Assembly (NCBI RefSeq): GCF_024502345.1
Contig: NZ_JALDNN010000001.1
Origin: Escherichia coli
Lineage (GTDB): Bacteria; Pseudomonadota; Gammaproteobacteria; Enterobacterales; Enterobacteriaceae
Reading direction: 5' to 3' (one strand)
Length of the DNA: 64,000 bases
Numbering within the stretch: the first letter of the stretch is position 1; each line of letters begins with the position of its first letter. Positions 2,333-38,456 of this stretch are shown here, piece after piece. A program made the translations under genes and the position numbers. The notes beneath the pieces were generated by a model. It was given only the letters and a program-made list of their open reading frames with translations. It did not search any database and had not been told where the DNA came from.

Positions 2333-2417
2333 GCGATATCTCCTTGATGGATCATGAGATCAGGAAAATCAAGCCTTCATCGCGAAGAGAGGGGCTATTC
2401 GCCCCTCTCTTGCGGTT

Positions 2418-3305
2418 TTAGAACAGCTTTGACAGTCTCGCCTTGATTTCATCGAGCCAGCCTTTTCCGCTCCCGCCTCCGGCCGTCTTTTCCTTGACTT
2501 TCTTGAGTTCAGAGTACAGGGGCTCAAAGTCCTTCTTTTTGCCATAGCCCAGCAGTTCTGCCATTTCCAACTGCTGCCGGGCTTCGTTTAACAAGTCCTG
2601 CAGGCGTTCACCGGACGCCTCGCTGCGCTGGCCATCTTCTGTCAAGGTCTCGGCGCGCTTGACGAGCAGTTTGGCGCGCAGGATGGGCAGCGGGATGACG
2701 CTGAGTGTCTCGACGAGCGTGCCGAGCGCCAACTGCAGCGCGGCCTTGGCCTCTTCGATCTTGCCCTGATCGATCAGCGGCACGACGGATTTCACGGCTG
2801 CCGGGTAAGTCGCCAGAGGGATGTTGGTGACCGCAATCACGATTTCGCTGGCCAGCAATGCCAACACGCGACGAGCGCGTTGCACCTCGCCATGTTTGAG
2901 GGCATCCAGCGCCTCGTCAGTCATCGCCTCAACGGTTTCCGTGTTGGCGAACAAGTCGTGCACGATGGTGCGCACATCAACGGGGGCCAGGGCGAGCGTG
3001 GGTTCGCGTGCAACGATCAGCTCCAGCTTTCCCGTCACTTCGGCCAGCGTTGCCAGTGCTCGCGCGGATTCTTTTTCGTCCAGGGCCGCCAGCGCTGATT
3101 TGGTCAGCGCCAAGGCCGAGACGGCCTCATCGAGGACTTGTTTACGTTTGTCTGCCGCTTGCGAGTCCGTTTCCTTCTGAACCTCAGGCTGTACCTCCGT
3201 GACGACTTCAGGCTTGGGCTCTGGTCTGGCAGGAAGGCTGCTTACCGCGGCCTGTTCGTTCGTGCCTTCGTTGATCGCGTTGGGATTCGATGTTTGCTCA
3301 TTCAT
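2418..3305 (-). CDS. YfdX-family protein (second copy)
   Basis: 295 aa; shares conserved blocks (LELIVAREP..LAPVDV, ASEIVIAVTNIPLATYPAA) with the adjacent paralog. Confidence 0.7.
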   Translation of the reverse strand: MNEQTSNPNAINEGTNEQAAVSSLPARPEPKPEVVTEVQPEVQKETDSQAADKRKQVLDEAVSALALTKSALAALDEKESARALATLAEVTGKLELIVAREPTLALAPVDVRTIVHDLFANTETVEAMTDEALDALKHGEVQRARRVLALLASEIVIAVTNIPLATYPAAVKSVVPLIDQGKIEEAKAALQLALGTLVETLSVIPLPILRAKLLVKRAETLTEDGQRSEASGERLQDLLNEARQQLEMAELLGYGKKKDFEPLYSELKKVKEKTAGGGSGKGWLDEIKARLSKLF

Positions 3306-3407
3306 GGTGATATGCCTCGTATGAGATAGTGAAAATAGGGGAATCTATTGGGGCCGACTGCGAATATCGCGAGACTGACCGATGGAGCAGTCGGCCCCTT
3401 CATCACC

Positions 3408-4337
3408 TCAAAACAGCTTTTGGATGCGCGTCTTCAACTCGTCGAACCATCCATTGCCGCTTTTGCCACCAGCCGACTTTTGCTCAATGGACTTCACCTG
3501 ATCGAAGATGGGTTTGAAGTCCTCCTTCTTGCCATAACCCAGGATTTGCGCCAGCTCGATCTCCGTGCGCACGGACGACAGCAAGGTGCTGAGCTCCTCG
3601 TTCTGCTTGGCATCGCGCTTGTCAGTCTCGGCCAGCTTTTCAGCTTTTGCCATCGCGGCTTCGGCCCGTAGCACGGGCAGAGGGAGTACAACTTGGGTGA
3701 CCACCAGCGTGTTCAGTGCTCGGGCGAGTTCCGCCTTGGCGTTGTCGATCTTGCCGCTGTCGATGAGCCGTGCGGCCGACTTGATCGCTGCCGGGTACGT
3801 TGCCATCGGCAGGTTGTCGGTTTCGATCACGATTTCGCTGGCAAGATTGGCAACAATGGGCCGTGCCTTTTGCACCTCGCCATCATCCAACAACTCCTGA
3901 GACAACTTGACCGCTTTCTTGACCGATTCCACGTCGGCGTGGATGTCATGGGTGATGACGCTTACATCGACGGGCGCCAAAGCAATTTTTGGCTCACGCG
4001 CCAATACCAGTTCCAGCTTTCCGCTGGCCAGTTCCAGCGCAGCGAGCGCCTCCTTGGTCTTCTTTGCATCAAGGAGGATCAATGCCTCATGGGTCTTGGC
4101 CAGCGCAGTGATTGCATCTTGGGCGAGTTCGGCGCGCTTCTTCGCGGCTTCCCGGGCGACCTTGTCATCTACCTGTGGCAGCGCCGCTTTGGATGCGGCA
4201 GAGGGTGCTGCAGCACCTGGGCTAGAACCTGCCGCCGATTGGGCCAGAGCCGGTCCGCTCAGTCCGACGACGACCGCCAGGGCAAGTGCGGAGAAGATGT
4301 ATTGTGGCTGTTTGATATTCATGATGTTGGACTCCAA
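3408..4337 (-). CDS. YfdX-family periplasmic protein (first copy), signal peptide
   Basis: 309 aa; N-terminal signal-peptide-like hydrophobic segment; paralog of 2418-3305. Confidence 0.7.
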   Translation of the reverse strand: MESNIMNIKQPQYIFSALALAVVVGLSGPALAQSAAGSSPGAAAPSAASKAALPQVDDKVAREAAKKRAELAQDAITALAKTHEALILLDAKKTKEALAALELASGKLELVLAREPKIALAPVDVSVITHDIHADVESVKKAVKLSQELLDDGEVQKARPIVANLASEIVIETDNLPMATYPAAIKSAARLIDSGKIDNAKAELARALNTLVVTQVVLPLPVLRAEAAMAKAEKLAETDKRDAKQNEELSTLLSSVRTEIELAQILGYGKKEDFKPIFDQVKSIEQKSAGGKSGNGWFDELKTRIQKLF

Positions 4338-6240: not shown

Positions 6241-7701
6241 CTAGAGAATGGGGGTGAACAGACGGGCCACCCCGTCGCGCAAGCGCATGGCCAGCGGGTG
6301 GGCGCGCAACGCCTTCGCCGATATCTCGCCCGACACATCACGAGCGGCATCAAAAAGGGATGACAGCCGCGTAGACAACGCGGTGTCGTACACCTCCACA
6401 TTGAACTCGAAGTTGAGGCGCAAACTGCGCGCATCCCAATTGGCCGAACCCAGGCAGCACCACGCTCCGTCTACCAGCATCAGCTTGCTGTGGTCGAACG
6501 GGCCAGGCCGTTCGAAGATGCGCACACCGTGCTCCAGCACCTGCCAGTAGTGGGCGCGCGCGGCCCATTGCACCGTGGGATGGTCGCCGTTTGCGGGCGT
6601 CAGCACGTCGATACGCACGCCGCGCAACGCGGCCGTGCTCAGCGCCGCGATCATCGGCTGATCGGGGACGAAGTAAGGTGTCCAGATGCGCACCGAATGC
6701 TTCGCCGCGCTCAAAGCGCCCATGAAGGTCCAGCGCATCCGGTCCAGGGCCTCGTCGGGACCGGCCTCGATGCCGCGCGCCCAACTGGTTCCCGGCTCAT
6801 CAGCCGTTACGGGCGGTTCGCCCCAGAAACCCTCGTTGAGCCGCTCGCCCGTGGTATCGCACCAATCATCGGTGAAGCTCCGCATCAGATGCTCCACCAC
6901 CGGCCCGCGCAGACGAAAGTGCAAATCGTGACAGGCCTGGTCCGGCGCATCGGGCCGCCAGTACGGGCTGAAGATGTTCAATCCGCCGGTGAAACCCGTC
7001 TCGCCATCGATCACCAGCAGCTTGCGGTGATTCCGCAGATGCGCGGCATGCAGGCGCGCGGGAATCAATGTCGGGTTGAACGTCGCCGCCGGAACGCCGG
7101 CGCGCTGCAAGGCGCGGTAGGCGCTGCGGGGCGTCCAGCGGGCATACACGTCGTCGATCAGCACCCGCACTTGCACGCCGCGCTCATGAGCCCGGCGCAG
7201 CGCATCGACGAACTGCGCCCCGATGCCTTGGCTGTCGAAGATGTACGAGGTCAAGGCGACGCTGTACCGCGCCGATTCGATGGCGGCGAGCATGGCCGGG
7301 TAGGCCTGCTCGCCATCGACAAGCGGCTCGATGCGGTTGCCGCCGGTCAGCGACTGGCCGGTGGCGCGTCCCACCAGGTGGGCCAGACCGGCAAGTGGCG
7401 GCGATACAGCCTCGGGTATCGTGGGCGAGAGATCCTGCCGAACAGCAGGATCTGCCCCCGGGAAGAGCCGCCGCGCCCGCCGCTGGTAACGGTTGATGCC
7501 GAACAGCCCATACAGCAGCGAACCGCCCAGCGGCAGCAAGGCGATCAGCAGTACCCACAGCGTGGCCGATCGAGGGTCACGCTTGTAGATGACCGCATGC
7601 CCCGCTGTGGGGATAGCGACCGCCAGCGACACGAGGGTGGCTGCCCATGTCAGCCCATTGGGGTCGGACACGACAGCCTCCCATCGCTCAAGATTCGCCA
7701 T
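6241..7701 (-). CDS. cls: Cardiolipin synthase-like phospholipase D family protein
   Basis: Two HxKxxxxD motifs (HRKLLVID, HSKLMLVD); N-terminal membrane helices; about 487 aa from internal Met (track ORF 6241..7884 overlaps clpK). Confidence 0.8.
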   Translation of the reverse strand: MANLERWEAVVSDPNGLTWAATLVSLAVAIPTAGHAVIYKRDPRSATLWVLLIALLPLGGSLLYGLFGINRYQRRARRLFPGADPAVRQDLSPTIPEAVSPPLAGLAHLVGRATGQSLTGGNRIEPLVDGEQAYPAMLAAIESARYSVALTSYIFDSQGIGAQFVDALRRAHERGVQVRVLIDDVYARWTPRSAYRALQRAGVPAATFNPTLIPARLHAAHLRNHRKLLVIDGETGFTGGLNIFSPYWRPDAPDQACHDLHFRLRGPVVEHLMRSFTDDWCDTTGERLNEGFWGEPPVTADEPGTSWARGIEAGPDEALDRMRWTFMGALSAAKHSVRIWTPYFVPDQPMIAALSTAALRGVRIDVLTPANGDHPTVQWAARAHYWQVLEHGVRIFERPGPFDHSKLMLVDGAWCCLGSANWDARSLRLNFEFNVEVYDTALSTRLSSLFDAARDVSGEISAKALRAHPLAMRLRDGVARLFTPIL

Positions 7702-10537
7702 CCGCTGACTTCTTCTTGCGCGCAGGCTTGCTCGCGTCGCCAGGCGGTGCCTCGGCCACGTCCGCGGCATCGGGCTTTTCAGGCTCAGCCGACTTCGCGG
7801 GTGGCTCCTGGCGCTCGAAGACCACCCGTTCGGCCTTGTCGTCCCAGCGGGCGTTGGCGTGATCACCCTTGCCGATACCGCCACCCAGCATCTCGCGCGC
7901 CAGCGCGGTTTCCAGCTCGCTGCGGATCAGCCGCTTGAGCTCACGCGCGCCGAACTCGGGCTTGTAGCCTTCCTCCGCGAAGTGGTCGATCAAGGTCTGA
8001 TCGAAGGTCAGCGTCACGCCCTGGCTGGCGGCGTTGCGGGCCACACGATCAAGCTGCAGGCCGACGATATGGCGGATTTCCTCCTTGCCCAGCGCATGGA
8101 AGACGATGATCTCGTCGATGCGGTTGATGAACTCGGGGCGGAAGTGTCCGCGCAGCACGTCCATCACCTCGGACTTGGTCTTCTCGTATTCCTCGCCGGC
8201 GGCGCCACCGGCCTTCAGCCGACGCTGGATGATGTCCGAGCCCAGGTTCGAGGTGGCGATGATGATGGTATTGGTGAAATCCACCACCCGGCCCTTGCCG
8301 TCGGTGAGCCGCCCGTCGTCGAACACCTGCAGCAGGATGTTGTAGACGTCGGGGTGCGCTTTTTCGATCTCATCGAGCAGCAACACGCTGTAGGGCTTGC
8401 GACGCACCTTCTCGGTGAGCTGGCCGCCCTCGTCATAGCCCACATAACCCGGAGGCGCGCCCACCAGGCGTGCCACGGCATGGCGTTCCCCGTACTCGGA
8501 CATGTCGATGCGCAGCAGCGCACCTTCATCGCCATAGATGGACTCGGCCAGCGCCTTGGCGAGCTCGGTCTTGCCCACGCCGGTCGGCCCAAGGAACAGG
8601 AAAGTCGCCACCGGCTTGTCGCCTTCGCGCAGGCCCGCGCGCGACAACCGCACGGCATCGGCCACCGCGCGCACCGCTTCGTCCTGGCCCACCAGGCGCT
8701 CATGCAGCCGCTGCTCCAGATGCAGCAGCTTCTCGCGTTCTTCCACCGTCAGCTCGTTGACCGGAATGCCGGTCAGGCGCGAGACGATCTGCGCGACATG
8801 CTCGGCCTTGACTTCGGCGCTGCCCGAGGCGCGCTCGCGTTCCCATTCCTCGACGAGCTGCTTGAGTTCAGTCTCCTTGGCCTCGATGCGCTTGCCCAGC
8901 TCGGCGGCCTTGTCGTACTGCTTGCGCGAGGCCATGTAGTCCTGCTCACGCCGCAACTGGTGCAGTTCGGACTCCAGCTCCTGCACCGCCACCGGGCGAG
9001 CCGTGGCCGACAGCTTCACGCGTGCGGCCGCCTGGTCAAGCAGGTCGATGGCCTTGTCAGGCAAAAAGCGCGCGGTGATGTAGCGGTCCGACAACTCGGC
9101 GGCGGCGATGATCGCATCCTCGGTGATGCTGACCTTGTGGTGCGCCTCGAAGGTGTCGCGCAGGCCGCGCAGGATCATCATGGTCTGCGCTACCGTCGGC
9201 TCGGGCACCATCACCGGCTGGAAACGACGCTCCAGCGCGGCGTCCTTCTCGATGTACTTCTGATACTCGTTGAGCGTGGTGGCGCCGATCAGGTTCAGTT
9301 CGCCGCGCGCCATCATCGGCTTGAACACGTTGGCCACGTCCAGCCCGCCTTCGCCGCCACCCTGGCCTGCACCGACGATGGTGTGCACTTCATCGATGAA
9401 GAGAATCATCTCGCCCTGGTGCTCGGTCACTTCCTTGAGCACCTTCTGCACGCGCTCCTCGAACTCGCCGCGATACTTGGCGCCTGCCACCATGGCGTTG
9501 ATGTTGAGCTCGACCAGACGCTTGTCGCGCAGCGTCTCGGGCACTTCACCGGCGACCATGCGCTGCGCCAGCCCTTCGACAATGGCGGTCTTGCCGACGC
9601 CGGGCTCACCGATCAACACCGGGTTGTTTTTCTTGCGCCGGGCCAGCACCTCGATGGTGGTCTCGATCTCCTGCGCACGGCCGATGACTGGATCGAGTTT
9701 GCCCTCGCGCGCCATCTTGGTGAGGTCGCGCGAGTATTTATCCAGCTCGGGCGTGTTGGTCGGCGTCTCGGCGCGGCCATCCTCGGCCCCTTTGCCGACC
9801 ACCTTGCTTACCTGCTGGCGCAGCGCTTGCGGCGTGAGGCCGTAACGGCGCAGCAGGTTGGCCGCCAAACCTTCGCCTTCCTCAGCGAGCCCGATCAGGA
9901 AATGCTCCGGCCCGACATAAGAGTGGCCGAGTTCGTTGGAGGCCACGAAAGCGCGGCTGAGCGCGTCCTTGACCCGGGGCGACACGCCGACTTCGCCCTC
10001 GAACGGCTTCTCGCCGCGCTTGGCTTCGGATTCGATCTGTCGCTTGAGGTCATCGACCTTGATCTTGAACTGTCCCAGGATGGTCTTCACCACGTCGCTG
10101 TCGGATAGCGCCAGCAGCAGGTGTTCGGTATCGACTTCGGCGCGCCCGAACTCTGCAGCGTGTCGGGCGGCCTCCTGCAATAGGGCCTCGGACTGTTCGC
10201 TGATACGGCTGGCGAGCCCACTGCCGCGACGGCGCGCAGTGCCCGTACCGGCCGGGGCGGGTTCGCCGAACGAGGCATCGACCACCTCGTCGGTATCGGC
10301 CGCCATGGACGGCGAATCGTCACCGATGCGGAAGAAGTCGCTGCCGAGGAAGTCTTCGAACAAGCCGCTGCGCGAGCCAAACAAGGCTTCCAGCGGCGAG
10401 ACGGTGCGCTTTTGCTGGCGCGCCAGTTGGCGATAGTGATCGTCACACAACAGCATGGTGCTGTGGCGACCATTGAGATTGGCTTCCACCCGCACCGTGG
10501 CGGGCTGGCCGCAGACCTGGCATTGTTTTCTGGCCAT
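7688..10537 (-). CDS. clpK: ClpK/ClpG-type Clp AAA+ disaggregase with N-terminal zinc-ribbon-like extension
   Basis: Two AAA modules (GEPGVGKT and GPTGVGKT Walker A), Clp-N region, CQVCGQ...CDDHY N-terminus; AAGGAG RBS 7 nt upstream of chosen ATG; about 949 aa. Confidence 0.9.
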
Positions 10538-12639: not shown

Positions 12640-14497
<1,858 letters not shown>

Positions 14498-14505
<8 letters not shown>

Positions 14506-16000
14506 TCCATCTTCCTATCAATCGAATGAACGCAGTGGTCAGTGGTGCCACCCTGCTTTTTTCCAATCCACAACGCTTTTCCAGCTCCCAGCGCCTAGAC
14601 GTTATGCCTGTCTGTACATCCTTCAGCATCGCTGCAGTCAGGCGACGGATCTGATACTCGCCGACGGACTCGGCATAGCGATCCAGGAAGGTGCAGCAAA
14701 GAGGCAATTGATCGAGACGGTGCTCGACTGATGCCCGATGGGGTAGCTGCTGCAGGAACCAGTTGCGACTCCTGCGCGGAAGGCCCAGGTCTTCTTCGCT
14801 ACCTCTACCAATCCGGATCAGCAGGCGCACCAACCTTATGTCACGCGCTCGCCAGTCGATGTGGCTGTTGTTGCCCTGTCGGCGCTGCCTGACCTGGTTC
14901 GCAACCATCAGCCAGTGTCGGTCATGACGATAGAGCCAGGCGTAACATGCCCCTGCTCCGTCTTGCCTGGCTGCCTTGGCTCCACCGTGATTAGCCAGTG
15001 CTTGCAGCCAAATGGCTCGGTACTGCTGCTTTTGCTCAAACTCAGCAGGGAGCAGCTGCACTGACCGCTCGGAGGCAAGGTCGACCTGGCGAGTCTTCGC
15101 CTCGCTGATCAGCTCGCCAGCATGCTGGCCAGGGCGCAGGCTGGTCCAGACGATCAGATGCTGCAGCGCACTGAATCCCTTGCGATGCTTCCTGAACATC
15201 GCCAACAGCCAAGGTGGAGGCTCTCCGGATGTCAGCAGACCGTTCGCAGCAAGCCAATCCCTTTGATGGGATGCCAGGATCTTCTCCCAGATGACTTCAG
15301 CCCTGACCTGCCGGCCTCGCCTGGCGCCGCACTCTGTAGCCAGGTACCGGTACAGGTTGGTCCAGCGTCCGTAGCCAGGCGATTGCACCTCTTCGAGCGC
15401 CAGCAGCTGCATAGCAGCCTTGGCGAGCCTGATAGCCTCTTCGCCCACGGGACTCACGCGAAGATCACGGGGCAGAAACAGTGGAGAGGCTGTATGAAAC
15501 TCGTGCCGCTGCGCTCGACGGAACGGGATAGGTGAGTTCAGGAGCTGACAGCCATGCTCGGGACAGGCATCTATCCCTTGAATCTGCCAGCTGCGCCGCC
15601 AGTAGGGTTCACCGTAGCGCGCAGCCATATCTTCAAAGCAGATCGGGCAGTAACGCAGCCAATCGGGCCACTTGACCAAGGCCGTCGAGGCCCCAGACAG
15701 ACCAATCGTCGGCCGGTCGGGAGCAAGCATGGCCTGAAAAAGATCGGTACGGCGCTCCGGCGGAATGAAAGGGGCATAGAGCGGGAACAGCGTGTGATTC
15801 AGGATCATGCCTTCCGCATCCAAGCCCGTGTTGTTCGCCAACGCAGTCAGGTGTGTGGGCAGATCGGTGATCGCGGCAACCTTGCTGTCACCGAAAAGCA
15901 TGTGCAGCAAGGTCTTGTGGCTGCCTATCCCCAGATGTACCCGGCACCGGGCAATACCGCTGTAAAGCAGTTCGTCCGGGTAGAGCCTGGGGAAGTACAT
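14498..16000 (-). CDS. tnsD: TnsD/TniQ-family target-site selection protein
   Basis: 500 aa; N-terminal TniQ-like region (YPDELLYSGIARC) and CPICFED...CPEHGC zinc-finger motif. Confidence 0.75.
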
Positions 16001-16001
16001 G

Positions 16002-17612
16002 TCAGCTCGCTCTCAGCAGAGGCCGTAGATCGAGGATCAAGCCAGCCTGCTTGAATCTGTCATAGGCCTCGCTTTCAGGCCCATCGGCATAACGTCGGCG
16101 CAGATCCTCCTCGGATAGGCACCCCCACTCCGTCCGCTTAACTCTGGAAATGCCGGGCCTCTTGGGAGCGTCCTGCGCGAGGTAGGCCGTGGCCTTGTGA
16201 ATCAGGGCCGCCAGCGGGATGTCCGGATTCTCCGCCAACAATTCATCGGCCATGGGAATGGCGATGTCCCTCGGGATTTCCATACCTTCGAGCAGGGCGG
16301 CCAACCGCTTTGCCTTGTCATCAGCCGGAGGGGCCGGTGGTTTAGGTTGGGGGACGCTATCCAGAGAGCGAGTCAGGGTCAGCAACCGTCCCTCGATCTC
16401 TGGCATCAGCAGGTCGTCATATTTGGCGATCAGCTCGGGCCTACCGCTCCGCAAGGCCGCCAGCATCGGATGGACCGGTTTGAACTCGTCCTCGAAAACC
16501 CTGCGCAGCAACAGCGGCTTAATGCACTCGACACCTGTCACTATCGCCCGGATCTGCGCCAGCGCGAACAGCTTGATGACGATGTCCATGACCCCTTGGG
16601 TGAGGTCGTACATCGTAGCCTCCAGTTCATCATCCAGCGGCGCCGCATTTCGCAGCCACTGATACTTCCAAAGCCGCTTCAACAGACGCTTCCAATGCTC
16701 GTCCCGAGGCAACCTATCCCAGCGGATGCTGCCCAACCCGGAGACCCGCCGAGCAGCCCGGAACGTGCGCTGGAAGAACTTGCTGGCCCGGTGGGTGCCG
16801 ACCTGAATGATCGGAACACCGATGGTGTTCACCAGCGACACGAAGAAATTGTGCATTTTTTCGGCACCACCGGAGCGTGCCTCGTTGAGGTTCTGAACCT
16901 CGTCGATGATCAGCACTCCGAGCGTGTGCAGATTGGCCAGCTGGCACATGGATGCCAGCAGACGTTTGGTACCCAGCTTCTTGCGTCCGTGGCTACGGCT
17001 GTAGTGGGTACCCAGGATCTTGTCTACTTCGTTGAAGAAGCTCAGGCACAGCTCATCCAAGTCACCGTCAATTGGGCAGTCGATCTTCAGGTAGACCAGT
17101 TGGGTGATGTCGTAATCAGGGTGATGGAGAGCTTGGGGGTACATGCCCAGAATCCGCTCCAGCGTGCGCGTCTTGCCGCAACCGGAGCAGCCGAACAGCG
17201 ACAGGCTGTTGGCCGTAGAGGAGACACTCTGGTACACCGCCGCATCCAGATCCTCCTCCTCGACACGGCGATAGCCATTCTGCAGGTGCGCATACCAGGC
17301 ACCGCTGGCCGGATTCCGACCGATGTACCCTTGACGGATCATCAGGCTGATCTTGCTCTCCAGCTCCAAGTGATGGCTCAGCGGCTGGAAGAAGCCGTGC
17401 AACAGGCGGGCAATCGCATGTGCCCTGAGCCGACCATCCAGAAGCGCCTCCTGCGGCTCGAAACCGGGAAGCTGCTGCAATAGATCGACCACCTCCTGCA
17501 GATCAGGAATCGGAGGCAATGCGCTGATGAGCGGATTGTCCTGATACTCGGGAAGCTGCTGCTCCTGGTAACGCGCCAGGGGAATGACTCCGCGCTGGAA
17601 TTCTTCAGTCAT
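16002..17612 (-). CDS. tnsC: TnsC AAA+ transposition regulator
   Basis: 536 aa; Walker A GCSGCGKT; Walker B-like IIDEVQN; placed between tnsB and tnsD. Confidence 0.8.
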   Translation of the reverse strand: MTEEFQRGVIPLARYQEQQLPEYQDNPLISALPPIPDLQEVVDLLQQLPGFEPQEALLDGRLRAHAIARLLHGFFQPLSHHLELESKISLMIRQGYIGRNPASGAWYAHLQNGYRRVEEEDLDAAVYQSVSSTANSLSLFGCSGCGKTRTLERILGMYPQALHHPDYDITQLVYLKIDCPIDGDLDELCLSFFNEVDKILGTHYSRSHGRKKLGTKRLLASMCQLANLHTLGVLIIDEVQNLNEARSGGAEKMHNFFVSLVNTIGVPIIQVGTHRASKFFQRTFRAARRVSGLGSIRWDRLPRDEHWKRLLKRLWKYQWLRNAAPLDDELEATMYDLTQGVMDIVIKLFALAQIRAIVTGVECIKPLLLRRVFEDEFKPVHPMLAALRSGRPELIAKYDDLLMPEIEGRLLTLTRSLDSVPQPKPPAPPADDKAKRLAALLEGMEIPRDIAIPMADELLAENPDIPLAALIHKATAYLAQDAPKRPGISRVKRTEWGCLSEEDLRRRYADGPESEAYDRFKQAGLILDLRPLLRAS

Positions 17613-19692
17613 CCTCTTCCTCCTTGAATATCAGGTCACTGAGATCTGGGAAGGCATAATCTTCCTGCTTCTCGCCCCGCAGTGGGATCACCTCGGCTGG
17701 CTTTTCCTGCTGTGCTTTATCCGGTTTGAATGCTGTTTTCTGGCGTTCCTGGCGCTTTTCCTGCTGCTTGTTCTCGCGGATCTGGGTTCCCAGATCCTTC
17801 GTGGTCATACCCGTTTTGAGCGGACTGGCATCCTCTGCCTGGGCAACGATGGACTCGATCTGCTTCAGAAGATTGCCTCTCTCTACCAAAGCTTCCGCCG
17901 CCGCGTTGGTATCGCTACGCCGTTCCTCTCTGGACAGCAGCCAGACATCCCAGAAGGTCATCCCCCTGAAGCGTCGACTGCGGTCGGCAAGATCGCAAAC
18001 CCAGTAGTCCTTGAGACTATTGGACGGCCGCAGGTAGATGTGGTCGGCGCTACGCGGATCGTATGCGACCGTTACCCCTGTCGGCCGGCGCCCCTGGCCT
18101 CGGTGAAACCAACCCTCCCTGATTGCTTCCTGGCAGGTGTAGAAGCAGCCGAACAGTCTGATTCCCAGCTCCGAAACCGTGGCCGACTCATGGGGCAAGA
18201 GATTTATCCGCACCAGCTCCTCGGGCGCAGTACGTAACCGGCCGGTCAAGTTGGCCAAGCCCCAGTTCCACAGCATGACCGGGATGGCTGGCAGATCGCC
18301 CGGCATACCAGAGGTTCTGTCGTATTTGCTCAAGGTATGAAAGTTGTTGTGGTAGAGGATGCCGGCAATGATGATCTGGGTGAACTCGGGCAAGGTCAGA
18401 CTGGCATCAAGTCTGTAGTCGTGGCCACCCCGCTTCCGGCTGGTGGTGTCCTCGACCACACCGCTGGCATAGGGCTTGAAACGCTCCTGCACCGTCCGGA
18501 AATAACGCTCGACGATCCCCTTGGCATCTCCTCGCCTGGCCGGTGCATTCTCGATGCGAACGCCGAAGGCTTGGGAAAATGCTTCCACCTTGGTGCCATT
18601 CAGTTCGCCCTTATCGGCCAGCACCACATCCGGCAAGCCTTTGACCGGCCAGTCGCTGGCATCGATCTCCACGCTATACTGGCGGCAATACTCAACCTTG
18701 TCGGCGACCGTGTTGGCCAATGCCACCATGGCACTGACCCAGGAAGGTCCCTCGAATCCGACGTACATACCAACGACCATGCGGCTGAACACGTCGATCA
18801 CCATGTAAACGACAGGCCTGCCGACGATAAGGCTGCGATCATGTTCTGAAACCAGATAGATATCGGCGATGGTGGCATCGATCTGGTAGCGGTATCCTGG
18901 CCCCAGTGCCTCGGTCGTCGATGTACTGCTGAGCGGTCGGAAGTCCTTGGCAAAATCCACTGCGGACACCCTGCATGGCAAGGTGTCGGTGAAGTGATAT
19001 TCGCGCCCATAGAAGTAACGGAACTGCCCCAATGTAGGCAGTTCGGAGGTCGGCAGCTCCGTCAGAACAGCACGGAGCAGATTCAGCCCGGCGGCGTAGG
19101 CATCAGGAATGGACGGATGTTTTTCCTTGAGCAAACGTTCCTCGATGACCCGGCGAAAAATGCGCTCGATGTCCGGCGTGACATTGCTCCCTTTCCCCTC
19201 CATCACCACTCTGGGCCTGCCCAGCTTGGCCTGGTTCGGCTTTCTGCGCTTGCCACGGGCGCCCGAGTTGACATAGTCCGGCAAGAGGGCATTCCTGCAC
19301 ATGCCTCGCTGCCAGTAGCGCCTCAGTAACCTATACACCGTCTGATTGGTGACACCATGGCGCTCCATGATGCCTCTGACAATGAGCCCTCTGGGGCGCC
19401 GCACGAAAAGCTGGGGGTTGTGCACAAAATCCGCCAGCATTCCCCAAGCTTCATCACGCTTCTGCTGATCAAGGGAACCTTCCTCAACCTCCCGTAGGAC
19501 TGTTTCCTCGAAGGGATCGGCAATGCTCTCCAGCTCCCGCTCCATGATCAGACGCTCCAGCTCTACAATCGATATCGGTTCGGGCAACGCCGTGTCCGAA
19601 TCGATATCGATCCAGATTGCCTGCTCGGTACCGGACCAAAGCAGGCGCTTTCGCAGTTCCCCCATCCGGAACACCTGATTAACGGGCAACAC
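17605..19692 (-). CDS. tnsB: TnsB DDE transposase (retroviral-integrase-like core)
   Basis: 695 aa; N-terminal HTH, central rve-like core (YQIDATIADIY...VIDVFSRM...), similar in size to Tn7 TnsB. Confidence 0.85.
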   Translation of the reverse strand: MLPVNQVFRMGELRKRLLWSGTEQAIWIDIDSDTALPEPISIVELERLIMERELESIADPFEETVLREVEEGSLDQQKRDEAWGMLADFVHNPQLFVRRPRGLIVRGIMERHGVTNQTVYRLLRRYWQRGMCRNALLPDYVNSGARGKRRKPNQAKLGRPRVVMEGKGSNVTPDIERIFRRVIEERLLKEKHPSIPDAYAAGLNLLRAVLTELPTSELPTLGQFRYFYGREYHFTDTLPCRVSAVDFAKDFRPLSSTSTTEALGPGYRYQIDATIADIYLVSEHDRSLIVGRPVVYMVIDVFSRMVVGMYVGFEGPSWVSAMVALANTVADKVEYCRQYSVEIDASDWPVKGLPDVVLADKGELNGTKVEAFSQAFGVRIENAPARRGDAKGIVERYFRTVQERFKPYASGVVEDTTSRKRGGHDYRLDASLTLPEFTQIIIAGILYHNNFHTLSKYDRTSGMPGDLPAIPVMLWNWGLANLTGRLRTAPEELVRINLLPHESATVSELGIRLFGCFYTCQEAIREGWFHRGQGRRPTGVTVAYDPRSADHIYLRPSNSLKDYWVCDLADRSRRFRGMTFWDVWLLSREERRSDTNAAAEALVERGNLLKQIESIVAQAEDASPLKTGMTTKDLGTQIRENKQQEKRQERQKTAFKPDKAQQEKPAEVIPLRGEKQEDYAFPDLSDLIFKEEEDD

Positions 19693-20506
19693 TGCTCAGC
19701 TCCTGATGCATTTGATGAGAGTTGGCAACCAGGTCTTTCGGCTTCAGCTCCCGGTAAGGAGTGTCAAGATCGAAAAGGAAACAGTGCCGGGCCAGCAACT
19801 GGCGTAGCCAATAGAGCGCCTGACCGGCCTCCAGCTGGCCGGAGGTATCCAGTCCTTGGGCAATAGCGGTCAGCTTCCGGTCTGGGTGACGCTGAAACTC
19901 GAGCAGAAACAGCTGCTGGTAATGGGCGAGATCGTCCTGAGCGATGTCGCCTTCAGCATGGGCAGGATAGAGCCATTGGATATTGGCAAATGCCACCTTG
20001 GATACCTCGCGCTCCGTAACGATGACCCAGGGAATACCTTTTTCCTGCCAGTAGCGCCTTTCAAGCTCAAGCCTCTCGATAACTTCAGGCTTCTGCAGGT
20101 CGGTACTGTACTTGGCCTGAATCGCGATGCTCGGGCGCTGAGGATCTTCGAAATCCACCAGAAAGTCGCTGGTCAGTACCTGCGGGGTACCCTTGTAACA
20201 ACCGTGGGGCAGGCCAAGCTCCTCGGCGATGCGCACCGTATCTTCGACCCGCATCGGAAACTGTTCACGGATATCGGTGACATGGGGAGACCGATCCAAG
20301 GTCAGGAAGATGGCCAGTTCAAGATCGGATAGAAGATGGTGTAAACGCCGGGTCTTGCTGCCAGGCAGGCGGTGGGAGCGACCCAGCGAGGACACGTCCC
20401 TTGTGTAGATGAACGGCTTGTAGTCTGATCCCTGGCCTTGACCACGCCCGTCCTTGAGCCTTCTATCGATCTGGGCCTGGGTCAGCCCCTTGAATGTTCC
20501 AGACAT
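19679..20506 (-). CDS. tnsA: TnsA endonuclease
   Basis: 275 aa; blocks shared with Tn7 TnsA as I recall it (QIxRRxKxGRGQG, GRSHR, HHLLSDLELAxFL, DIREQFP, LELERRYWQ). Confidence 0.9.
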   Translation of the reverse strand: MSGTFKGLTQAQIDRRLKDGRGQGQGSDYKPFIYTRDVSSLGRSHRLPGSKTRRLHHLLSDLELAIFLTLDRSPHVTDIREQFPMRVEDTVRIAEELGLPHGCYKGTPQVLTSDFLVDFEDPQRPSIAIQAKYSTDLQKPEVIERLELERRYWQEKGIPWVIVTEREVSKVAFANIQWLYPAHAEGDIAQDDLAHYQQLFLLEFQRHPDRKLTAIAQGLDTSGQLEAGQALYWLRQLLARHCFLFDLDTPYRELKPKDLVANSHQMHQELSSVAR

Positions 20507-20565
20507 GAGAAAGCCTGCCCCCGCTGTGTCGATGACCTCAACATAGCGGATGCAGGCTCAGAATG

Positions 20566-20626
20566 AAACTTTATTTATACGGATGATACTTTATTTATAC
20601 GGATGAACCTTTATTTGCATCCCACA
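20566..20626. repeat. Tn7-like right-end terminal repeats (putative TnsB binding sites) ending in terminal 5'-TGTGGG on the complementary strand
   Basis: Three tandem about 20-bp repeats: ACTTTATTTATACGGATGA (x2) then CCTTTATTTGCATCCCACA; about 120 bp upstream of tnsA start. Confidence 0.75.
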
Positions 20627-20703
20627 CATTTTACTTAAGGCATAAGCGGTAGAGTTGAGTGATAACCCTTCCATAATTTCATTTTCTAACACACTAATTT
20701 AAT

Positions 20704-21069
20704 TTAGTGTGAATTTCCACTTTTAGTCATTATCGCTATCGCTTCATCGATAGTCGGTATTGTAAAGAGAGAATTCTCTCTACAATCCTTGCGAATAACC
20801 TTCCTGTTTTTTTGAACAGAAATATTTTCGCACCAGGCTAATGTCCCGGTGAAATGCTTTTCTTCCATCCTCATATCTAGAAAAGCAAGTCGATCATTAA
20901 GGGATTGCATATCTTCAGTTACAGTAGAGGGACCTGATTCTAACAGTTCCAGACGGCTTTCCACATCAGCAACCTTGCCTTTAACCTGTGAGACGTCTTC
21001 TGCTAACTTTTCATGTCTGTGGATAGTATCAGCAAGTGCTCGTGAGTTTTGGGCGAATATCTCAGCCAT
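20704..21069 (-). CDS. Hypothetical coiled-coil protein (low-GC module)
   Basis: 121-aa ORF, heptad-like charged/hydrophobic pattern; no recognisable motif. Confidence 0.35.
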   Translation of the reverse strand: MAEIFAQNSRALADTIHRHEKLAEDVSQVKGKVADVESRLELLESGPSTVTEDMQSLNDRLAFLDMRMEEKHFTGTLAWCENISVQKNRKVIRKDCRENSLFTIPTIDEAIAIMTKSGNSH

Positions 21070-21216
21070 TTGCGCTAAGGCAGATCCTTTCGCTTCTGGT
21101 GGAGGTGGGTATATATACCTAATGCTTAGTCAACGACAGTATGACCTCATGGAATAACCATTTTTGAAAGTGCTCACCAGCTGCGCTTCGGTCGCTCGAC
21201 ATGACTCAATACAAAC

Positions 21217-21420
21217 CTAGTTGGAGCTATAACTTTCGCCGTAGGAATTAATGACCATTATTTGGCCAGCATCAACAGGCTGGCCATCTAAAGTAACAAG
21301 TCGTTTAGTTGCACGCTCTGGAAAGATAATATCCTTTGACTGCCTATCTTCTTCAATGTCCTTTAGTACCTTAGCCAAGGAGGTTTTCAATGTTCCATGG
21401 GGCGCATACAAAGAGCACAC
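21217..21420 (-). CDS. Hypothetical small protein (possibly a gene fragment)
   Basis: 67-aa ORF only; low-GC context. Confidence 0.2.
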   Translation of the reverse strand: MCSLYAPHGTLKTSLAKVLKDIEEDRQSKDIIFPERATKRLVTLDGQPVDAGQIMVINSYGESYSSN

Positions 21421-21562
21421 GCCGTCAATGCTATTAATTCTGGTAAAGTCTAACTACTCCACCAGTTTATTGATGCTGTAACAGTTCTCCAGATCCAGTC
21501 CAAGTTTCATTTCGACTTCTTTTTCAAATCGTTCATTTCAAAAAACTGTGAATTAACACAGC

Positions 21563-23216
21563 TCACGCATACCTGCTTGAAAACTCGTCCATCGAATTAG
21601 ATACCGTAAAATTCACCTCATCACCCAGTGCTTCAAAATGTGCATAACCACATTTTATTTTGGCATTTTCCTCCGGACGTCGTTCCACCGAGAAAAGCGT
21701 GCTTTTGGTTTCGACAACGAAATAGAGCTTTTCTTTTCCGTCCTTTTCGATCAGCACCGCCCAGTCGGGGTTGTAACCGCCTAATGGGGTATCGATTTTG
21801 AACCAACTAGGGAGTTTGGCGTAAAGTTTGATATCCTCGTTTCGCTCGAAGGCCGAGGCGAATTCCAATTCGATATCAGAGTCGTAAACCACGTGGTCGA
21901 AGACGGACTTCGTCATACCAGCGGTAGTTGGCGACCTTGTCGATAAAAAACAGGCTCAGCACCTTAATGCCCTGTGGGCGCAGGCGCATTTCTTTATCGA
22001 GATGCTCTTCAATGGTTTTGCGGATCTGCAGGCGTTTAAATTCATCCGGATCAACTTCTCCCAAGGCCTGACCCAGTTTCAGAATATCGGGCTTACTGGT
22101 AAAGCTGATGTATTCATTGCCCTGTTCGCAGTAGATGTCATCAATAATGTAGCCGTCATATACATCGCGGCCACCGCTGTACCTGGCATCCAGCAAATCC
22201 GCTCCGCTGGTCACCGTGACTTCCTTGCGCTTAATGCTGCCATTCTTCAGGCGAGCATCAATTTCGATTTTGGCACTGATCGGGCTTTTTTTATTGTTCA
22301 CACTGACCAGCTTGATAAAGGCCTTATTGTGGCCGTCCTTAACCTCAATGCCTGCCACTTCAATCTGCTTAACCAGTTTTTGCTCGTAGGCATCAACTGA
22401 ATCAAGCTTGTAGAGCATATGGTGCTTTTCCACATGGGTAGCTGAATAACGCAGTGTACACATGGGATTAAGCGAGGCGATGGCCTCTTTACTCTTATCT
22501 GTGGTGTCAACACTCTGCGGCTCATCGACAATCACAATTGGGTTGGTTTGCTGGATAAATTCGATCGGCTTGGCACCGGTCATCCGGTCGTGTGCCCGGT
22601 GAATGATGTTGGCTTTGTTCTCTTGCTCCGGGTCGCTAAAGCTTTTCCGGAAGGCATCGATATTGATGACCATGATCTGAATGTCAGGGCTGGTCGCAAA
22701 GTTACGCACATCCGACAGCTTACTGGAATCGTAGGTGAAATAGTCGAAGGCAACGTTTTCGTACAGCTCTTTAAAATGAGTCGCCGTAATTTCCAGTGAC
22801 TTCTGCACTCCTTCTTTAATGGCGATGGACGGCACCACGATAATAAACTTGGTAAAGCCATAGAGCCGGTTCATTTCGAAAACTGTACGCAGGTAAACAT
22901 AGGTTTTACCCGTTCCGGTTTCCATTTCCACGGTTAAGTGAATGCCGTATTTCGAGTCAAATGACTCTGACGGCGCGAGGCCATTTTTCAGCTGTATTTT
23001 GCGGATATTGGCATGGATGTCTTCATCCAGCAGGCGTAGGCGGTTACCAATACCCAGGGTATCTTCCTGAATACCATGAAACAGCGAGCCTTCTTCCCAG
23101 GAATGCAGCGGTGCTACCGTAAAGTTGGTCTGGCAGATTTCCTGGCCGGCGAATACGCCCGTTACTGACTCAATCGCATCACGCTGATAGCCAAGGTGAT
23201 AGCTGTAACTCTTCAA
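21563..23216 (-). pseudogene. res: Type III restriction Res-like SF2 helicase-nuclease, disrupted (frameshift between helicase N-terminal part and C-terminal PD-(D/E)xK nuclease part; helicase domain 2 apparently missing)
   Basis: ORF 21876..23216 has YQRDAI, METGTGKT (Walker A), IVDEPQ (Walker B), SAT motif; ORF 21563..21916 in another frame has GYNPDW...FVVETK nuclease motif; frames overlap 21879-21955 around an A6/T6 tract at 21945-21950. Confidence 0.65.
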
Positions 23217-23700
23217 TGACCCACTTTGCTTGATCCGCTCTGTTTATGCGCTTGTCCGCCAGGCAGATAGCCAGTTGTTCTTTGTCGTGTTGTTTTTCGC
23301 GTACGTTTGAATCCGAATCGCCAGTGCCCTCTGTGCCTTTGTTTTCAGCGTGCACAAAGAAAATTACTAATGGGTAAGGTATCGCCCTGTTGATCAGCTG
23401 ACCAATTCGTTCTGCGCTTTTGGTATTGCTTAATTCCACGTGCAGAAAGGCCAGCTCACCATAGTCGCGCAGGTCGTCACTAAAAGGCGCGATATTGATG
23501 GTGCTGGGCTTTAGGGTGTAGAGCCAACGGATTTTATCAACATCGTCCTTCAGAGCCTTTTTGTCTTTAGCGTCCAGGTCGGCGTGCTCCTGAAACATCT
23601 TTTTGAACAGGGGCTTATTGAGCACACAGCTATTGGGCACGTTCAAGCCTTCCAGAAAGGCTTCGAATTGTGGCAAGCCTAACCTCATATCAGACATCAC
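23179..23700 (-). CDS. Hypothetical protein (possibly DUF4391-like), 38-bp overlap with res-like gene
   Basis: 173-aa ORF co-oriented and overlapping res start; DUF4391 assignment is from memory only. Confidence 0.35.
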   Translation of the reverse strand: MMSDMRLGLPQFEAFLEGLNVPNSCVLNKPLFKKMFQEHADLDAKDKKALKDDVDKIRWLYTLKPSTINIAPFSDDLRDYGELAFLHVELSNTKSAERIGQLINRAIPYPLVIFFVHAENKGTEGTGDSDSNVREKQHDKEQLAICLADKRINRADQAKWVIEELQLSPWLSA

Positions 23701-24403
23701 GCTCTCCTTGACCTTCTGTTCCCTGAGTAACGGCTGTCAATATCAGGTAGGACACCACCATAAAGTCTTCAATGCCCTGACTGGAGGTGGCGGTAAGTAC
23801 AGTACCGCCTTTGGCAAACAGGCTTTCAATGCCTTTTTCTTCGCTCTTCCCGGCAATGCTATCTACAGCGACAGCTAATAGGTGCTGAAAGTGGCTCATA
23901 TCACACCCGTGGCGTGTCATGCGGTTAACTTCGGTGATGGCGGGTTGATCGGGCACTTTGTGCTTAAAGGCTTCACGCTTGAGCAGATCGAGTATCTTTT
24001 TACTTTGGGTGAAGTTCAGCTCAACTACAGTGCTGCCTTCGGCATCAGCGGTCACGTAGATCAGGAAGTAAGGTGCCAGCGGGTAATTATCATCTACCTG
24101 AACCGCTTCTTTACCGCTGCGGATATTCTTCAGGCAGAAGATGACGCCGGGTTTGATGCCATCGGCGACCATATCTTCGTCAATGCTGACGGCGGCATAC
24201 AGGCCTAGCGGTGTTTGCTCCAGCGTTGCGAGACGGGCCTTATCGTTCATGTAGCCTGACAGATCCATGCGGAAGTCATTGAGGGTAAGGTCGGTAATGG
24301 ATACCGGATGGGGCGTGGAGGATATGGTAGCAACCATGATGCGCTGTCTGCCGGACCGCGCCACCAGCCCAGTAGCGACACAGTTGCACGGGAGGCTCTG
24401 CAC
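23690..24403 (-). pseudogene. Hypothetical ORF, probably the 3' portion of a 5'-truncated gene
   Basis: GTG-initiated 237-aa ORF; same frame stays open a further 72 codons upstream (to about 24619) without any ATG/GTG/TTG; upstream part is GC-rich unlike the body. Confidence 0.4.
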
Positions 24404-30155: not shown

Positions 30156-30232
30156 TGGCGGAACGGACGGGACTCGAACCCGCGACCCCCTGCGTGACAG
30201 GCAGGTATTCTAACCGACTGAACTACCGCTCC
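30156..30232 (-). tRNA. aspV: tRNA-Asp (GUC)
   Basis: Exact reverse complement of my recalled E. coli tRNA-Asp sequence incl. CCA; adjacent to dnaQ as in K-12. Confidence 0.95.
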
Positions 30233-38379: not shown

Positions 38380-38456
38380 TGGCGGAACGGACGGGACTCG
38401 AACCCGCGACCCCCTGCGTGACAGGCAGGTATTCTAACCGACTGAACTACCGCTCC
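38380..38456 (-). tRNA. aspU: tRNA-Asp (GUC), distal tRNA of rrnH operon
   Basis: Identical to aspV copy; follows 5S rRNA. Confidence 0.95.

What the first reader, a model, noticed from the sequence alone, without database searches (positions are those of the whole stretch)
20627..21560. Low-GC spacer with two small unannotatable ORFs directly flanking the transposon end
The DNA immediately outside the Tn7-like right end is visibly AT-rich and encodes a 121-aa coiled-coil protein whose 3' end lies about 77 bp from the transposon terminus, plus a 67-aa ORF. In Tn7 the TnsD target is the 3' end of a gene next to Tn7-R, so this gene could mark the attachment site, or both may be remnants of larger genes.
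Basis: inference. Interest (0 to 1): 0.35.

Follow-up and report, generated by a model that had tools for sequence, protein, structure and literature searches.

The report
Gene relics beside a Tn7-like end
The AT-rich stretch next to the transposon end is leftover pieces of three broken genes in an E. coli genomic island, not a dedicated landing site, because the same transposon normally lands behind glmS like classical Tn7; the finding is ordinary.

Summary
The Tn7-like element (tnsABCDE plus heat-resistance tLST/LHR cargo) ends at window 20626, followed by a 5-bp target duplication (CATTT, 20627-20631). The DNA outside it has 35-45% GC, against 57-60% inside the element. A 121-aa ORF ends 77 bp from the terminus, and a 67-aa ORF follows.

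The attachment-site interpretation fails. All 934 bp can be assigned:
- the last 19 nt of a YagK/YfjJ gene relic;
- the 3' 520 bp of a BRO-N/Ant-like gene that has lost its 5' third and carries a nonsense codon, a 4-bp insertion and a 1-bp deletion (the 121-aa ORF is its tail, read from an internal Met);
- the first ~97 codons of a PDC-S46-type candidate defence ATPase gene (719-aa profile), with a nonsense codon, fused to the BRO relic at a 12-bp microhomology (the 67-aa ORF starts at an internal GTG).

The same transposition module (99.6-99.7% identical) sits about 25 bp downstream of glmS in Pantoea and in a Pseudomonadales genome. A 98.5% variant sits at E. coli glmS.

Of 69 complete E. 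coli genomes carrying the BRO-type flank, only three carry the element, at the identical junction, which points to one event. Other copies occupy at least eight unrelated sites, many on plasmids. This is a non-att insertion, most likely through the TnsE pathway. Interest is low.

The parts
20559..20626 (-). Right end of the Tn7-like tLST element. The terminus is TGTGGGATGC... read inward on the - strand, with three 20-bp-spaced TnsB-type repeats (ATGAAACTTTATTTATACGG).
   Evidence: Both junctions and the empty site were compared.
20627..20631 (.). 5-bp target-site duplication CATTT (right copy).
   Evidence: The empty site L001 reads ...GGAAGGC|CATTT|TACTT. The left junction in L003 reads ...GGCCATTT|TGTGGG, and the right junction reads CCCACA|CATTTTACTT.
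20627..20645 (+). Last 19 nt (with TAA stop at 20643-20645) of a YagK/YfjJ C-terminal relic ORF, cut by the insertion 14-19 bp before its stop.
   Evidence: YagK_YfjJ_C, E=0.055; annotated 'YagK/YfjJ domain-containing protein' in L038 and L039.
20690..20711 (.). 22-bp AT-rich palindrome between the convergent relics, overlapping the stop codon of the 121-aa ORF.
   Evidence: I3: 11-nt arms, 91% complementary. Not scored as an intrinsic terminator.
20704..21069 (-). 121-aa ORF. It is the C-terminal tail of the BRO-N/Ant-like gene, read from an internal Met (codon 141 of the intact 263-aa gene).
   Evidence: Annotated only as a hypothetical protein in RefSeq (WP_225389173 / WP_224164149).
20704..21224 (-). 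Whole BRO-N/Ant-like pseudogene relic. About 88 codons are missing at the 5' end. It carries a CGA>TGA nonsense codon (+ strand 21206-21208), a 4-bp insertion giving TAG plus a frameshift (~21118-21121), and a 1-bp deletion near the 3' end.
   Evidence: alignment to the intact gene, L002 6071-6862; frames; Bro-N, 2.8e-7 on the intact homolog; phrog_130 anti-repressor Ant, 4e-16.
21213..21224 (.). 12-bp microhomology junction where the PDC-S46 5' relic is fused to the BRO 3' relic (a deletion scar).
   Evidence: L036 (res + PDC-S46) homology covers 21213-21911 and L002 (BRO) homology covers 20629-21224.
21217..21420 (-). 67-aa ORF. It is an internal piece (from a GTG = Val31) of the PDC-S46 N-terminus, ending at a stop created by the fusion junction.
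   Evidence: (PDLC05023 PDC-S46, E=2e-18, profile positions 29-93 of 719).
21213..21510 (-). 5' relic (~97 codons) of a PDC-S46-type SMC/ABC-like ATPase candidate defence gene. The true ATG is at 21508-21510, and a TAG nonsense codon sits at codon 19 (21454-21456).
   Evidence: phrog_38705, 2.7e-18, positions 3-95 of 723; homologs with E at codon 19; gene directly downstream of the type III res in L036; 143+561 aa in L037, matching PDC-S46 at 1.6e-45 and 3e-219; 97 aa: E=1.3e-26, positions 3-93.
21563..23216 (-). Type III restriction endonuclease (res) pseudogene bordering the spacer. A 1.37-kb internal deletion leaves two ORFs of 446 and 117 aa.
12883..20506 (-). [quoted passage not shown]

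Best explanation
The 934-bp AT-rich 'spacer' is not a functional unit. It is a patchwork of gene relics inside a decaying, horizontally acquired CP4-like/defence island next to tRNA-Asp (aspV) in E. coli.

From left to right it contains:
1. The last 19 nt of a YagK/YfjJ relic.
2. A 58-bp convergent intergenic stretch with a palindrome.
3. The 3' 520 bp of a BRO-N/Ant-like gene, inactivated by 5' truncation, a nonsense codon and two frameshifts. The 121-aa ORF is its still-open tail.
4. The first ~97 codons of a PDC-S46-type defence ATPase gene with a nonsense codon. The 67-aa ORF is an internal stretch of it. The two relics are joined by a microhomology-mediated deletion.
5. The normal 52-bp gap to the type III res gene.

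The Tn7-like tLST element landed here once, by ordinary Tn7-type cut-and-paste with a 5-bp duplication, at a site that is not its attachment site. Its TnsD pathway targets glmS (attTn7). This insertion is therefore inferred to come from the second pathway, TnsABC+TnsE, which targets replicating or mobile DNA, or to have been inherited with the island.

Shown here: the relic identities, the lesions, the junctions, the glmS att site of the same module, and the non-recurrence of this site. Inferred: that TnsE was the selector.
For: - Empty site and both junctions with TSD CATTT.
- BRO relic: 89% nt identity to the 3' two-thirds of an intact 263-aa BRO-N gene. Lesions were mapped. The intact homolog hits Bro-N and Ant families.
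- Constraint on the 121 codons: 4 non-synonymous against 1 synonymous differences between relic alleles, versus 8 against 21 relative to the intact gene.
- PDC-S46 relic.
- Same tnsABCDE module (99.6-99.7% identical) at glmS with 5-bp TSDs and tLST cargo in Pantoea and a Pseudomonadales MAG. A 98.5% variant sits at E. coli glmS..
- Non-att flanks have chance-level identity to attTn7 (16/42 against a shuffle mean of 15.4).
- Only 3 of 69 genomes with the flank carry the element. They share the junction and near-identical element sequence, so this is one event.
- At least 8 other unrelated insertion contexts. 25 of 44 places are on plasmids.
- TnsE is intact (TnsE_C, 5.5e-44).
- The two-pathway behaviour of Tn7 and the presence of TnsE in glmS-targeting elements come from PMC11406308 and PMC4678854.
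- Island context (DUF905, DUF932, RadC, CbeA/CbtA, tRNA-Asp, dnaQ).
Against: - TnsE dependence is not demonstrated. The orientation-versus-replication rule of TnsE events was not tested.
- The site is chromosomal, not a conjugal plasmid.
- The 121-aa ORF keeps an ATG and is annotated as a protein by PGAP, so residual expression cannot be excluded.
- The selection test rests on only 5 substitutions.
- The ancestral island with intact PDC-S46 and BRO genes side by side was not found, so the size of the inferred deletion is unknown.
Confidence: 0.88

Rival explanations
1. One reading: the 121-aa gene is the attachment-site gene. The element's TnsD would recognise its 3' end and direct insertion downstream of it, as Tn7 does with glmS.
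For: The geometry fits superficially. The ORF is transcribed toward the right end and stops 77 bp from it.
Against: - The same TnsD module (99.6-99.7% identical) is found ~25 bp downstream of glmS in three other genomes, and a 98.5% variant sits at E. coli glmS.
- There is no sequence similarity to the attTn7 binding region.
- 66 E. coli genomes with the homologous region lack the element. Only one event is seen.
- The distance is 72-77 bp rather than ~25 bp, so the expected TnsD footprint (+23 to +58) falls in intergenic DNA.
- The gene is a pseudogene relic, the opposite of a conserved safe-site gene.
Confidence: 0.02
2. The 121-aa ORF is a functional stand-alone small helical protein, a domesticated C-terminal module of an Ant/Bro protein expressed from its internal ATG. 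The insertion next to it is coincidental.
For: - The open frame with an ATG is retained in all relic alleles, at about 93% amino-acid identity to the intact gene (8 of 115 codons differ).
- A confident long helix is predicted at residues 2-44.
- PGAP calls it a protein.
Against: - The nearest AAGGA lies 17 nt upstream of the ATG (my reading of the sequence), and no promoter-like site lies upstream of it.
- A 1-bp deletion alters the C-terminus.
- 4 of 5 substitutions between relic alleles are non-synonymous.
- Homology to the intact gene continues upstream through stops and a frameshift, so the ORF boundary is accidental.
- No family of ~121-aa proteins was found in Pfam, PHROGs or PADLOC.
Confidence: 0.08
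3. The insertion was made without TnsE. It could be an off-target TnsD event, or a core TnsABC event attracted by a DNA distortion (AT-rich bent DNA or the palindrome at 20690-20711).
For: The site is AT-rich and about 60 bp from a 22-bp palindrome. Tn7 core machinery can respond to distorted or triplex DNA, as cited in PMC4678854.
Against: - There is no attTn7 similarity.
- In Tn7, wild-type TnsABC is essentially inactive without a selector (PMC11406308).
- The other non-att flanks are not AT-rich and share no motif.
- The element has an intact TnsE and many plasmid copies.
Confidence: 0.12

Closest known systems
Tn7 and its two targeting pathways (TnsD to attTn7 downstream of glmS; TnsE to replicating or conjugal DNA)
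   Same: - tnsABCDE gene set.
- TGT...ACA termini, clustered TnsB repeats in the right end, and a 5-bp TSD.
- Right end facing the glmS 3' end, ~25 bp past the stop codon, in Pantoea, Pseudomonadales and E. coli TC24.
- Numerous non-att copies on plasmids and mobile islands.
   Different: The cargo is the tLST/LHR heat-resistance locus rather than dfrA/aadA. The copy in the window sits at a non-att chromosomal site. TnsE dependence is inferred, not shown.
tLST / LHR (transmissible locus of stress tolerance; locus of heat resistance) genomic island
   Same: clpK, sHSP20, yfdX1/2, hdeD, trx, ftsH fragment, and the PLD protein, with ~60% GC. The literature describes it as flanked by mobile elements including Tn7 (PMC8290217, PMC4563881).
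   Different: Here the island is seen to be the cargo of a complete Tn7-like element with defined ends and TSD. The held reviews mention this only in passing.
BRO-N / Ant-like anti-repressor genes of prophages and CP4-type islands
   Same: The 121-aa ORF and 155 bp upstream are 84-89% identical at the DNA level to the 3' two-thirds of 263-aa BRO-N proteins (WP_021570002 and others).
   Different: The Bro-N domain start is missing. There is a nonsense codon and two frameshifts, so this is a pseudogene relic and not a family member in the functional sense.
PDC-S46 (PADLOC candidate single-gene defence system; SMC/ABC-like ATPase of ~719 aa)
   Same: The N-terminal ~93 residues match (E=1.3e-26). 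The position directly downstream of a type III res gene is the same as in intact loci (L036).
   Different: Only 13% of the gene remains, with a premature stop at codon 19.
YagK/YfjJ (inovirus Gp2-like) genes of CP4-57-type cryptic prophages
   Same: The small + strand ORF crossing the insertion point in empty sites is annotated as a YagK/YfjJ domain protein.
   Different: It is only a 60-76-aa C-terminal fragment. In the window, just its last 19 nt lie right of the element.

Membership tests
TnsD attachment site (attTn7-type) marked by the 121-aa gene | A gene's 3' end faces the transposon right end at a fixed short distance (~25 bp in Tn7). | tested here: inconclusive
   The orientation is right, but the distance is 77 bp to the terminus (72 bp to the far side of the TSD). 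At glmS sites of the same element it is ~25 bp.
TnsD attachment site (attTn7-type) marked by the 121-aa gene | Recurrent independent insertions at the same site in different genomes. | tested here: not met
   Only 3 of 69 E. coli genomes with the flank carry the element. All have the identical junction and a near-identical element, so this is one event.
TnsD attachment site (attTn7-type) marked by the 121-aa gene | Other copies of the same TnsD-bearing element use the same target gene. | tested here: not met
   The 99.6-99.7% identical module sits at glmS in L004, L026 and L028. A 98.5% variant sits at E. coli glmS in L033.
TnsD attachment site (attTn7-type) marked by the 121-aa gene | A conserved target sequence resembling the known TnsD-binding region. 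| tested here: not met
   16/42 identities against a shuffle mean of 15.4. The glmS sites give 30-42/42.
Tn7-like heteromeric-transposase element | TnsA + TnsB + TnsC with TniQ/TnsD (and TnsE) genes next to the right end. | tested here: met
   Pfam hits: Tn7_TnsA-like_N/C, AAA_22/TniB, TniQ+TnsD, TnsE_C. TnsB is the 695-aa ORF, annotated as Mu transposase C-terminal domain protein.
Tn7-like heteromeric-transposase element | Terminal inverted repeats with multiple TnsB sites and a 5-bp TSD. | tested here: met
   TGTGGGATGCAAATAAAG at both ends, three repeats in the right end, and TSD CATTT here (TGGGC and GGGCC in Pantoea).
TnsE-pathway insertion | Intact TnsE, and a target without att sequence. 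| tested here: met
   TnsE of 540 aa (TnsE_C, 5.5e-44). The flank is unrelated to attTn7.
TnsE-pathway insertion | A single orientation relative to lagging-strand synthesis, and a preference for conjugal DNA. | not tested
   25 of 44 E. coli places are on plasmids, which is suggestive. The orientation-versus-replichore analysis was not done, and the exact rule could not be retrieved from the held papers.
TnsE-pathway insertion | Genetic dependence of the event on tnsE. | not testable with these tools
   Needs transposition assays.
BRO-N / Ant family gene | Intact Bro-N N-terminal domain and a continuous reading frame. | tested here: not met
   The first ~88 codons are absent. There is a TGA nonsense codon, a 4-bp insertion and a 1-bp deletion. 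The 121-aa ORF alone has no Bro-N hit.
BRO-N / Ant family gene | Sequence homology to family members. | tested here: met
   84-89% nt identity over 20629-21224 to annotated BRO-N genes.
PDC-S46 candidate defence ATPase | A full-length ~719-aa ATPase. | tested here: not met
   Only profile positions 3-93 are present, with a stop at codon 19.

The most novel reading that the evidence does not exclude
The most novel reading not excluded: this tLST-carrying Tn7-like element preferentially lands in defence or mobile islands. Examples are this site (beside a type III RM/PDC-S46 cluster), gajB of Gabija in strain G3/10, a prophage integrase, and IS elements on plasmids. The cause would be that these regions offer replication or repair structures recognised by its TnsE. 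On this reading the element contributes to erosion of host defence islands, and the 121-aa relic could retain some activity.
Probability: 0.1. Interest if true: 0.4.

Novelty: already known. Interest (0 to 1): 0.12.

Why it matters
For the finding as stated, very little. It removes a false lead (a supposed new Tn7 attachment-site gene) and shows that two 'unannotatable' ORFs are pseudogene debris.

There is modest practical value:
- It fixes the exact ends, the TSD and the true att site (glmS) of the Tn7-like element that carries the food-safety-relevant heat-resistance locus tLST. The reviews available here (PMC8290217, PMC4563881) mention Tn7 only as one of several elements flanking the locus.
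- It documents that E. coli copies mostly sit at non-att sites on plasmids and islands. This is relevant to how the locus spreads.

Tried and rejected
- Pfam on the two ORFs gave nothing usable: only DUF7310 at E=0.009 for the 121-aa ORF.
- PHROGs on the 121-aa ORF gave only weak hits. PADLOC gave none.
- Rfam (E<=1) found only a chance snoRNA hit at 21561-21625. The promoter and terminator scans found no enrichment.
- The word-indexed protein search for the 67-aa region returned only short or truncated homologs. The family was identified through PHROG/PADLOC profiles and neighbouring contigs instead.
- Breakpoints at 20995 and 21213 in other E. coli genomes turned out to be IS66 and IS-remnant insertions, not an intact ancestral arrangement.
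- I tried to retrieve the TnsE orientation rule from Peters & Craig 2001, Parks & Peters 2009 and Parks et al. 2009. None is held, so the orientation test was dropped.
- I considered that the window and ABWA45/C 236-04A might represent independent insertions at the same nucleotide, which would argue for site specificity. I rejected this. The element and flanks are near-identical apart from a clpK recombination patch and lineage-specific deletions.
- One literature query failed on term length.

Full report
**Context**

The window is E. coli chromosome around rrnH and aspV. tRNA-Asp genes lie at 30156-30232 and 38380-38456, with tRNA-Ala and tRNA-Ile at 41.8-42.0 kb. dnaQ, a methyltransferase and gloB-type genes lie right of aspV.

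Left of aspV lies a CP4-like island with DUF4942, DUF5983, CbtA/CbeA, RadC, DUF932 and DUF905 genes. Next comes a defence cluster of helicase-related, DUF4391 and type III res genes.

From 20626 leftwards lies a Tn7-like transposon. It carries tnsA (19679-20506), tnsB (17605-19692), tnsC (16002-17612), tnsD (14498-16000) and tnsE (12883-14505), all on the minus strand. Its cargo is the heat-resistance locus tLST/LHR: Hsp20, ClpK-type AAA protein, PLD protein, FtsH fragment and YfdX proteins.

**1.

- GC drops from 0.56-0.62 in the element to 0.35-0.45 across 20550-21750.
- The 121-aa ORF (20704-21069, -) and the 67-aa ORF (21217-21420, -) exist.
- I fixed the transposon terminus by comparison with an empty site in E. 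coli NCTC9966 (L001) and with both junctions in strain C 236-04A (L003).
- The element ends ...TTTATTTGCATCCCACA at 20626. The target pentamer CATTT (20627-20631) is duplicated at the left junction.
- Three 20-bp-spaced repeats (20563-20622) are the clustered TnsB-type sites typical of a Tn7 right end (PMC11406308).
- A single-sequence structure model of the 121-aa product is mostly long helix (residues 2-44, pLDDT about 80-90). 'Coiled-coil' is therefore plausible but unproven.

**2. What the 934 bp actually are**

Every base can be assigned.

(a) *20627-20645.* These are the last six codons plus stop of a short + strand ORF that crosses the insertion point in empty sites. RefSeq annotates it as a YagK/YfjJ domain protein of 60-76 aa, itself a C-terminal fragment. 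The element cut it 14-19 bp before its stop.

(b) *20646-20703.* This is the intergenic DNA between two convergent relics. It includes a 22-bp palindrome (20690-20711) that overlaps the 121-aa ORF's stop.

(c) *20704-21224.* This is the 3' two-thirds of a BRO-N/Ant-like gene.
- In many E. coli genomes the homologous DNA (84-89% identity) is an intact 263-aa 'BRO-N domain-containing protein'. It hits Pfam Bro-N (2.8e-7) and PHROG anti-repressor Ant families (4e-16).
- In the window, homology starts only at codon ~89.
- The BRO frame then carries a CGA>TGA nonsense codon.
- A 4-bp insertion creates a TAG and shifts the frame just upstream of an internal Met (codon 141).
- A 1-bp deletion rewrites the last residues.
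- The 121-aa ORF is simply what remains open after the frameshift.
- The nearest AAGGA lies 17 nt upstream of the ATG by my reading of the sequence. The scan finds no promoter-like site upstream of the ORF.
- Between two relic alleles (window versus NCTC9966), 4 of 5 codon differences are non-synonymous. Against the intact gene the ratio is 8 non-synonymous to 21 synonymous. The numbers are small but fit relaxed constraint after inactivation.

(d) *21213-21510.* These are the first ~97 codons of a PDC-S46-type gene.
- The frame containing the 67-aa ORF extends upstream to an ATG at 21508-21510. It is interrupted by a TAG at codon 19, where homologs have Glu.
- The 97-residue conceptual product matches PADLOC PDC-S46 positions 3-93 of 719 (E=1.3e-26) and phrog_38705 positions 3-95 of 723. 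The 67-aa ORF alone matches positions 29-93 (E=2e-18).
- In a metagenomic contig (L036) the intact-looking gene starts 52 bp downstream of a type III res gene. This is the same spacing as in the window, but there the contig ends after 159 codons.
- In L037 the gene is split into 143 + 561 aa. These match PDC-S46 at 1.6e-45 and 3e-219, with a weak SMC_N hit.
- The '67-aa ORF' starts at an internal GTG (Val31) and stops at a codon created by the fusion.

(e) *The join.* Homology to the res/PDC-S46 locus covers 21213-21911 and homology to the BRO gene covers 20629-21224. The 12-bp overlap is a microhomology deletion scar that removed the body of PDC-S46 and the 5' part of the BRO gene.

(f) *21511-21562.* This is the normal res-PDC-S46 intergenic gap.

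No Rfam family and no excess of promoter or terminator motifs is present. The low GC is simply that of this horizontally acquired island DNA beside a 60% GC transposon.

**3. Is the 121-aa gene an attachment-site marker? No.**

I scanned one genome per bacterial species for the element's terminus and read the flanks.
- The identical right end lies about 25 bp downstream of the glmS stop codon (...DQPRNLAKSVTVE*) in Pantoea agglomerans, Pantoea sp. GD03673 and a Pseudomonadales MAG.
- Related right ends sit at glmS in several Pseudomonas species.
- The Pantoea and MAG copies are 99.6-99.7% identical to the window across tnsA-tnsE.
- The Pantoea and MAG copies carry the same tLST cargo, and the Pantoea copies have their own 5-bp duplications.
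- In E. coli TC24 a 98.5% identical variant sits next to glmS.

This TnsD's site is therefore canonical attTn7. By contrast:
- The window's flank matches the attTn7 TnsD region no better than shuffled sequence: 16/42 against a mean of 15.4. The glmS sites score 30-42/42.
- Among 5,426 complete E. coli genomes, 69 have a match covering at least 80% of a query (20540-21224) that spans the last 87 bp of the element and the BRO-type flank. Only three also carry the element (ABWA45, C 236-04A, LR536430).
- Those three share the window's exact junction. Their element differs only by a clpK recombination patch and lineage-specific deletions, so this is a single ancestral event.
- Other copies of the element lie in unrelated places. 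These include a hypothetical gene (WP_001209045) on plasmids and four chromosomes, and gajB of a Gabija system. Further sites are a prophage integrase gene, a DUF2254 fragment, IS903B, IS1B, and upstream of a CopG/RelE pair.
- 25 of 44 E. coli places are on plasmids.

**4. Mechanism**

Shown: Tn7-type cut-and-paste with a 5-bp duplication, at a non-att site, in an element whose five tns genes are intact in the window.

Inferred, at about 0.6 given that the relic account is right: target choice by TnsE. In Tn7, TnsE directs insertion into DNA undergoing lagging-strand, conjugal or repair replication. It is nearly universal in glmS-targeting elements (PMC11406308; PMC4678854).

Alternatives are a selector-independent or off-target event, or inheritance of the already-occupied island by recombination. 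The orientation test for TnsE could not be done, because the papers giving the rule are not held.

**5. Comparison and novelty**

Everything here belongs to known kinds:
- Tn7's two-pathway lifestyle.
- The tLST/LHR island, reported to be flanked by mobile elements including Tn7 (PMC8290217, PMC4563881).
- Ordinary pseudogene decay in CP4-type and defence islands.

The only mildly new points are descriptive: the exact ends, TSD and glmS att site of the tLST-carrying element, and the catalogue of its non-att sites in E. coli.

**6. Verdict**

The attachment-site interpretation is refuted. Interest is low (0.12).

Noticed in passing
window 21563-24403 (compare L001, L003, L044): The defence cluster right of the spacer carries three clean deletions relative to ABWA45, C 236-04A and NCTC9966. 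They are 1.37 kb inside res, 2.3 kb removing mod and part of DUF4391, and about 4.5 kb removing most of the helicase-related gene. The type III RM-like system in the window is therefore dead.
   Followed up: partly
window 15413-16970 and ~19924; L003, L044: The window's element has intact tnsC and tnsA. The three RefSeq strains with the same insertion have a 1557-bp tnsC deletion, a 1-bp tnsA indel and an IS21 in the cargo. The window therefore represents a less decayed copy of the same insertion.
   Followed up: partly
window 7433-8988 (clpK): Clustered SNPs plus a 12-bp indel relative to ABWA45 and C 236-04A, in an otherwise near-identical element. This looks like a gene-conversion or recombination patch in clpK.
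   Followed up: no
L010 6614-6941, L011 3549-3876, L022 662-988, L023 4188-4515, L024 8834-9160: Miniature elements of ~330 bp, bounded by the same Tn7-like termini, in Pseudomonas alcaligenes and P. oleovorans. Some sit at the glmS att site. They look like MITE-like non-autonomous derivatives of this Tn7 family.
   Followed up: no
L031 (E. coli G3/10) 2196-3727: The same tLST Tn7-like element is inserted inside gajB of a Gabija system. GajB is truncated at about residue 158 of 392, and GajA is intact upstream.
   Followed up: partly
L030, L032, L040, L041, L045: An identical right-end flank (genes WP_001209045 and WP_000493077) occurs at four very different chromosomal coordinates and on plasmid pECO-6357. 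This suggests the transposon is nested in a larger mobile unit that itself moves.
   Followed up: no
L013 ~1742 (Pseudomonas sp. NW5): Two Tn7-like ends abut with only 5 bp between them, indicating tandem Tn7-like elements.
   Followed up: no
window 20690-20711: A near-perfect 22-bp AT-rich palindrome overlaps the stop codon of the 121-aa ORF, between the convergent YagK/YfjJ and BRO relics. The terminator scan did not score it.
   Followed up: partly
window 20849-21157 (+): A 102-aa ORF antisense to the BRO relic. It is most likely spurious and nothing in RefSeq is annotated there.
   Followed up: no
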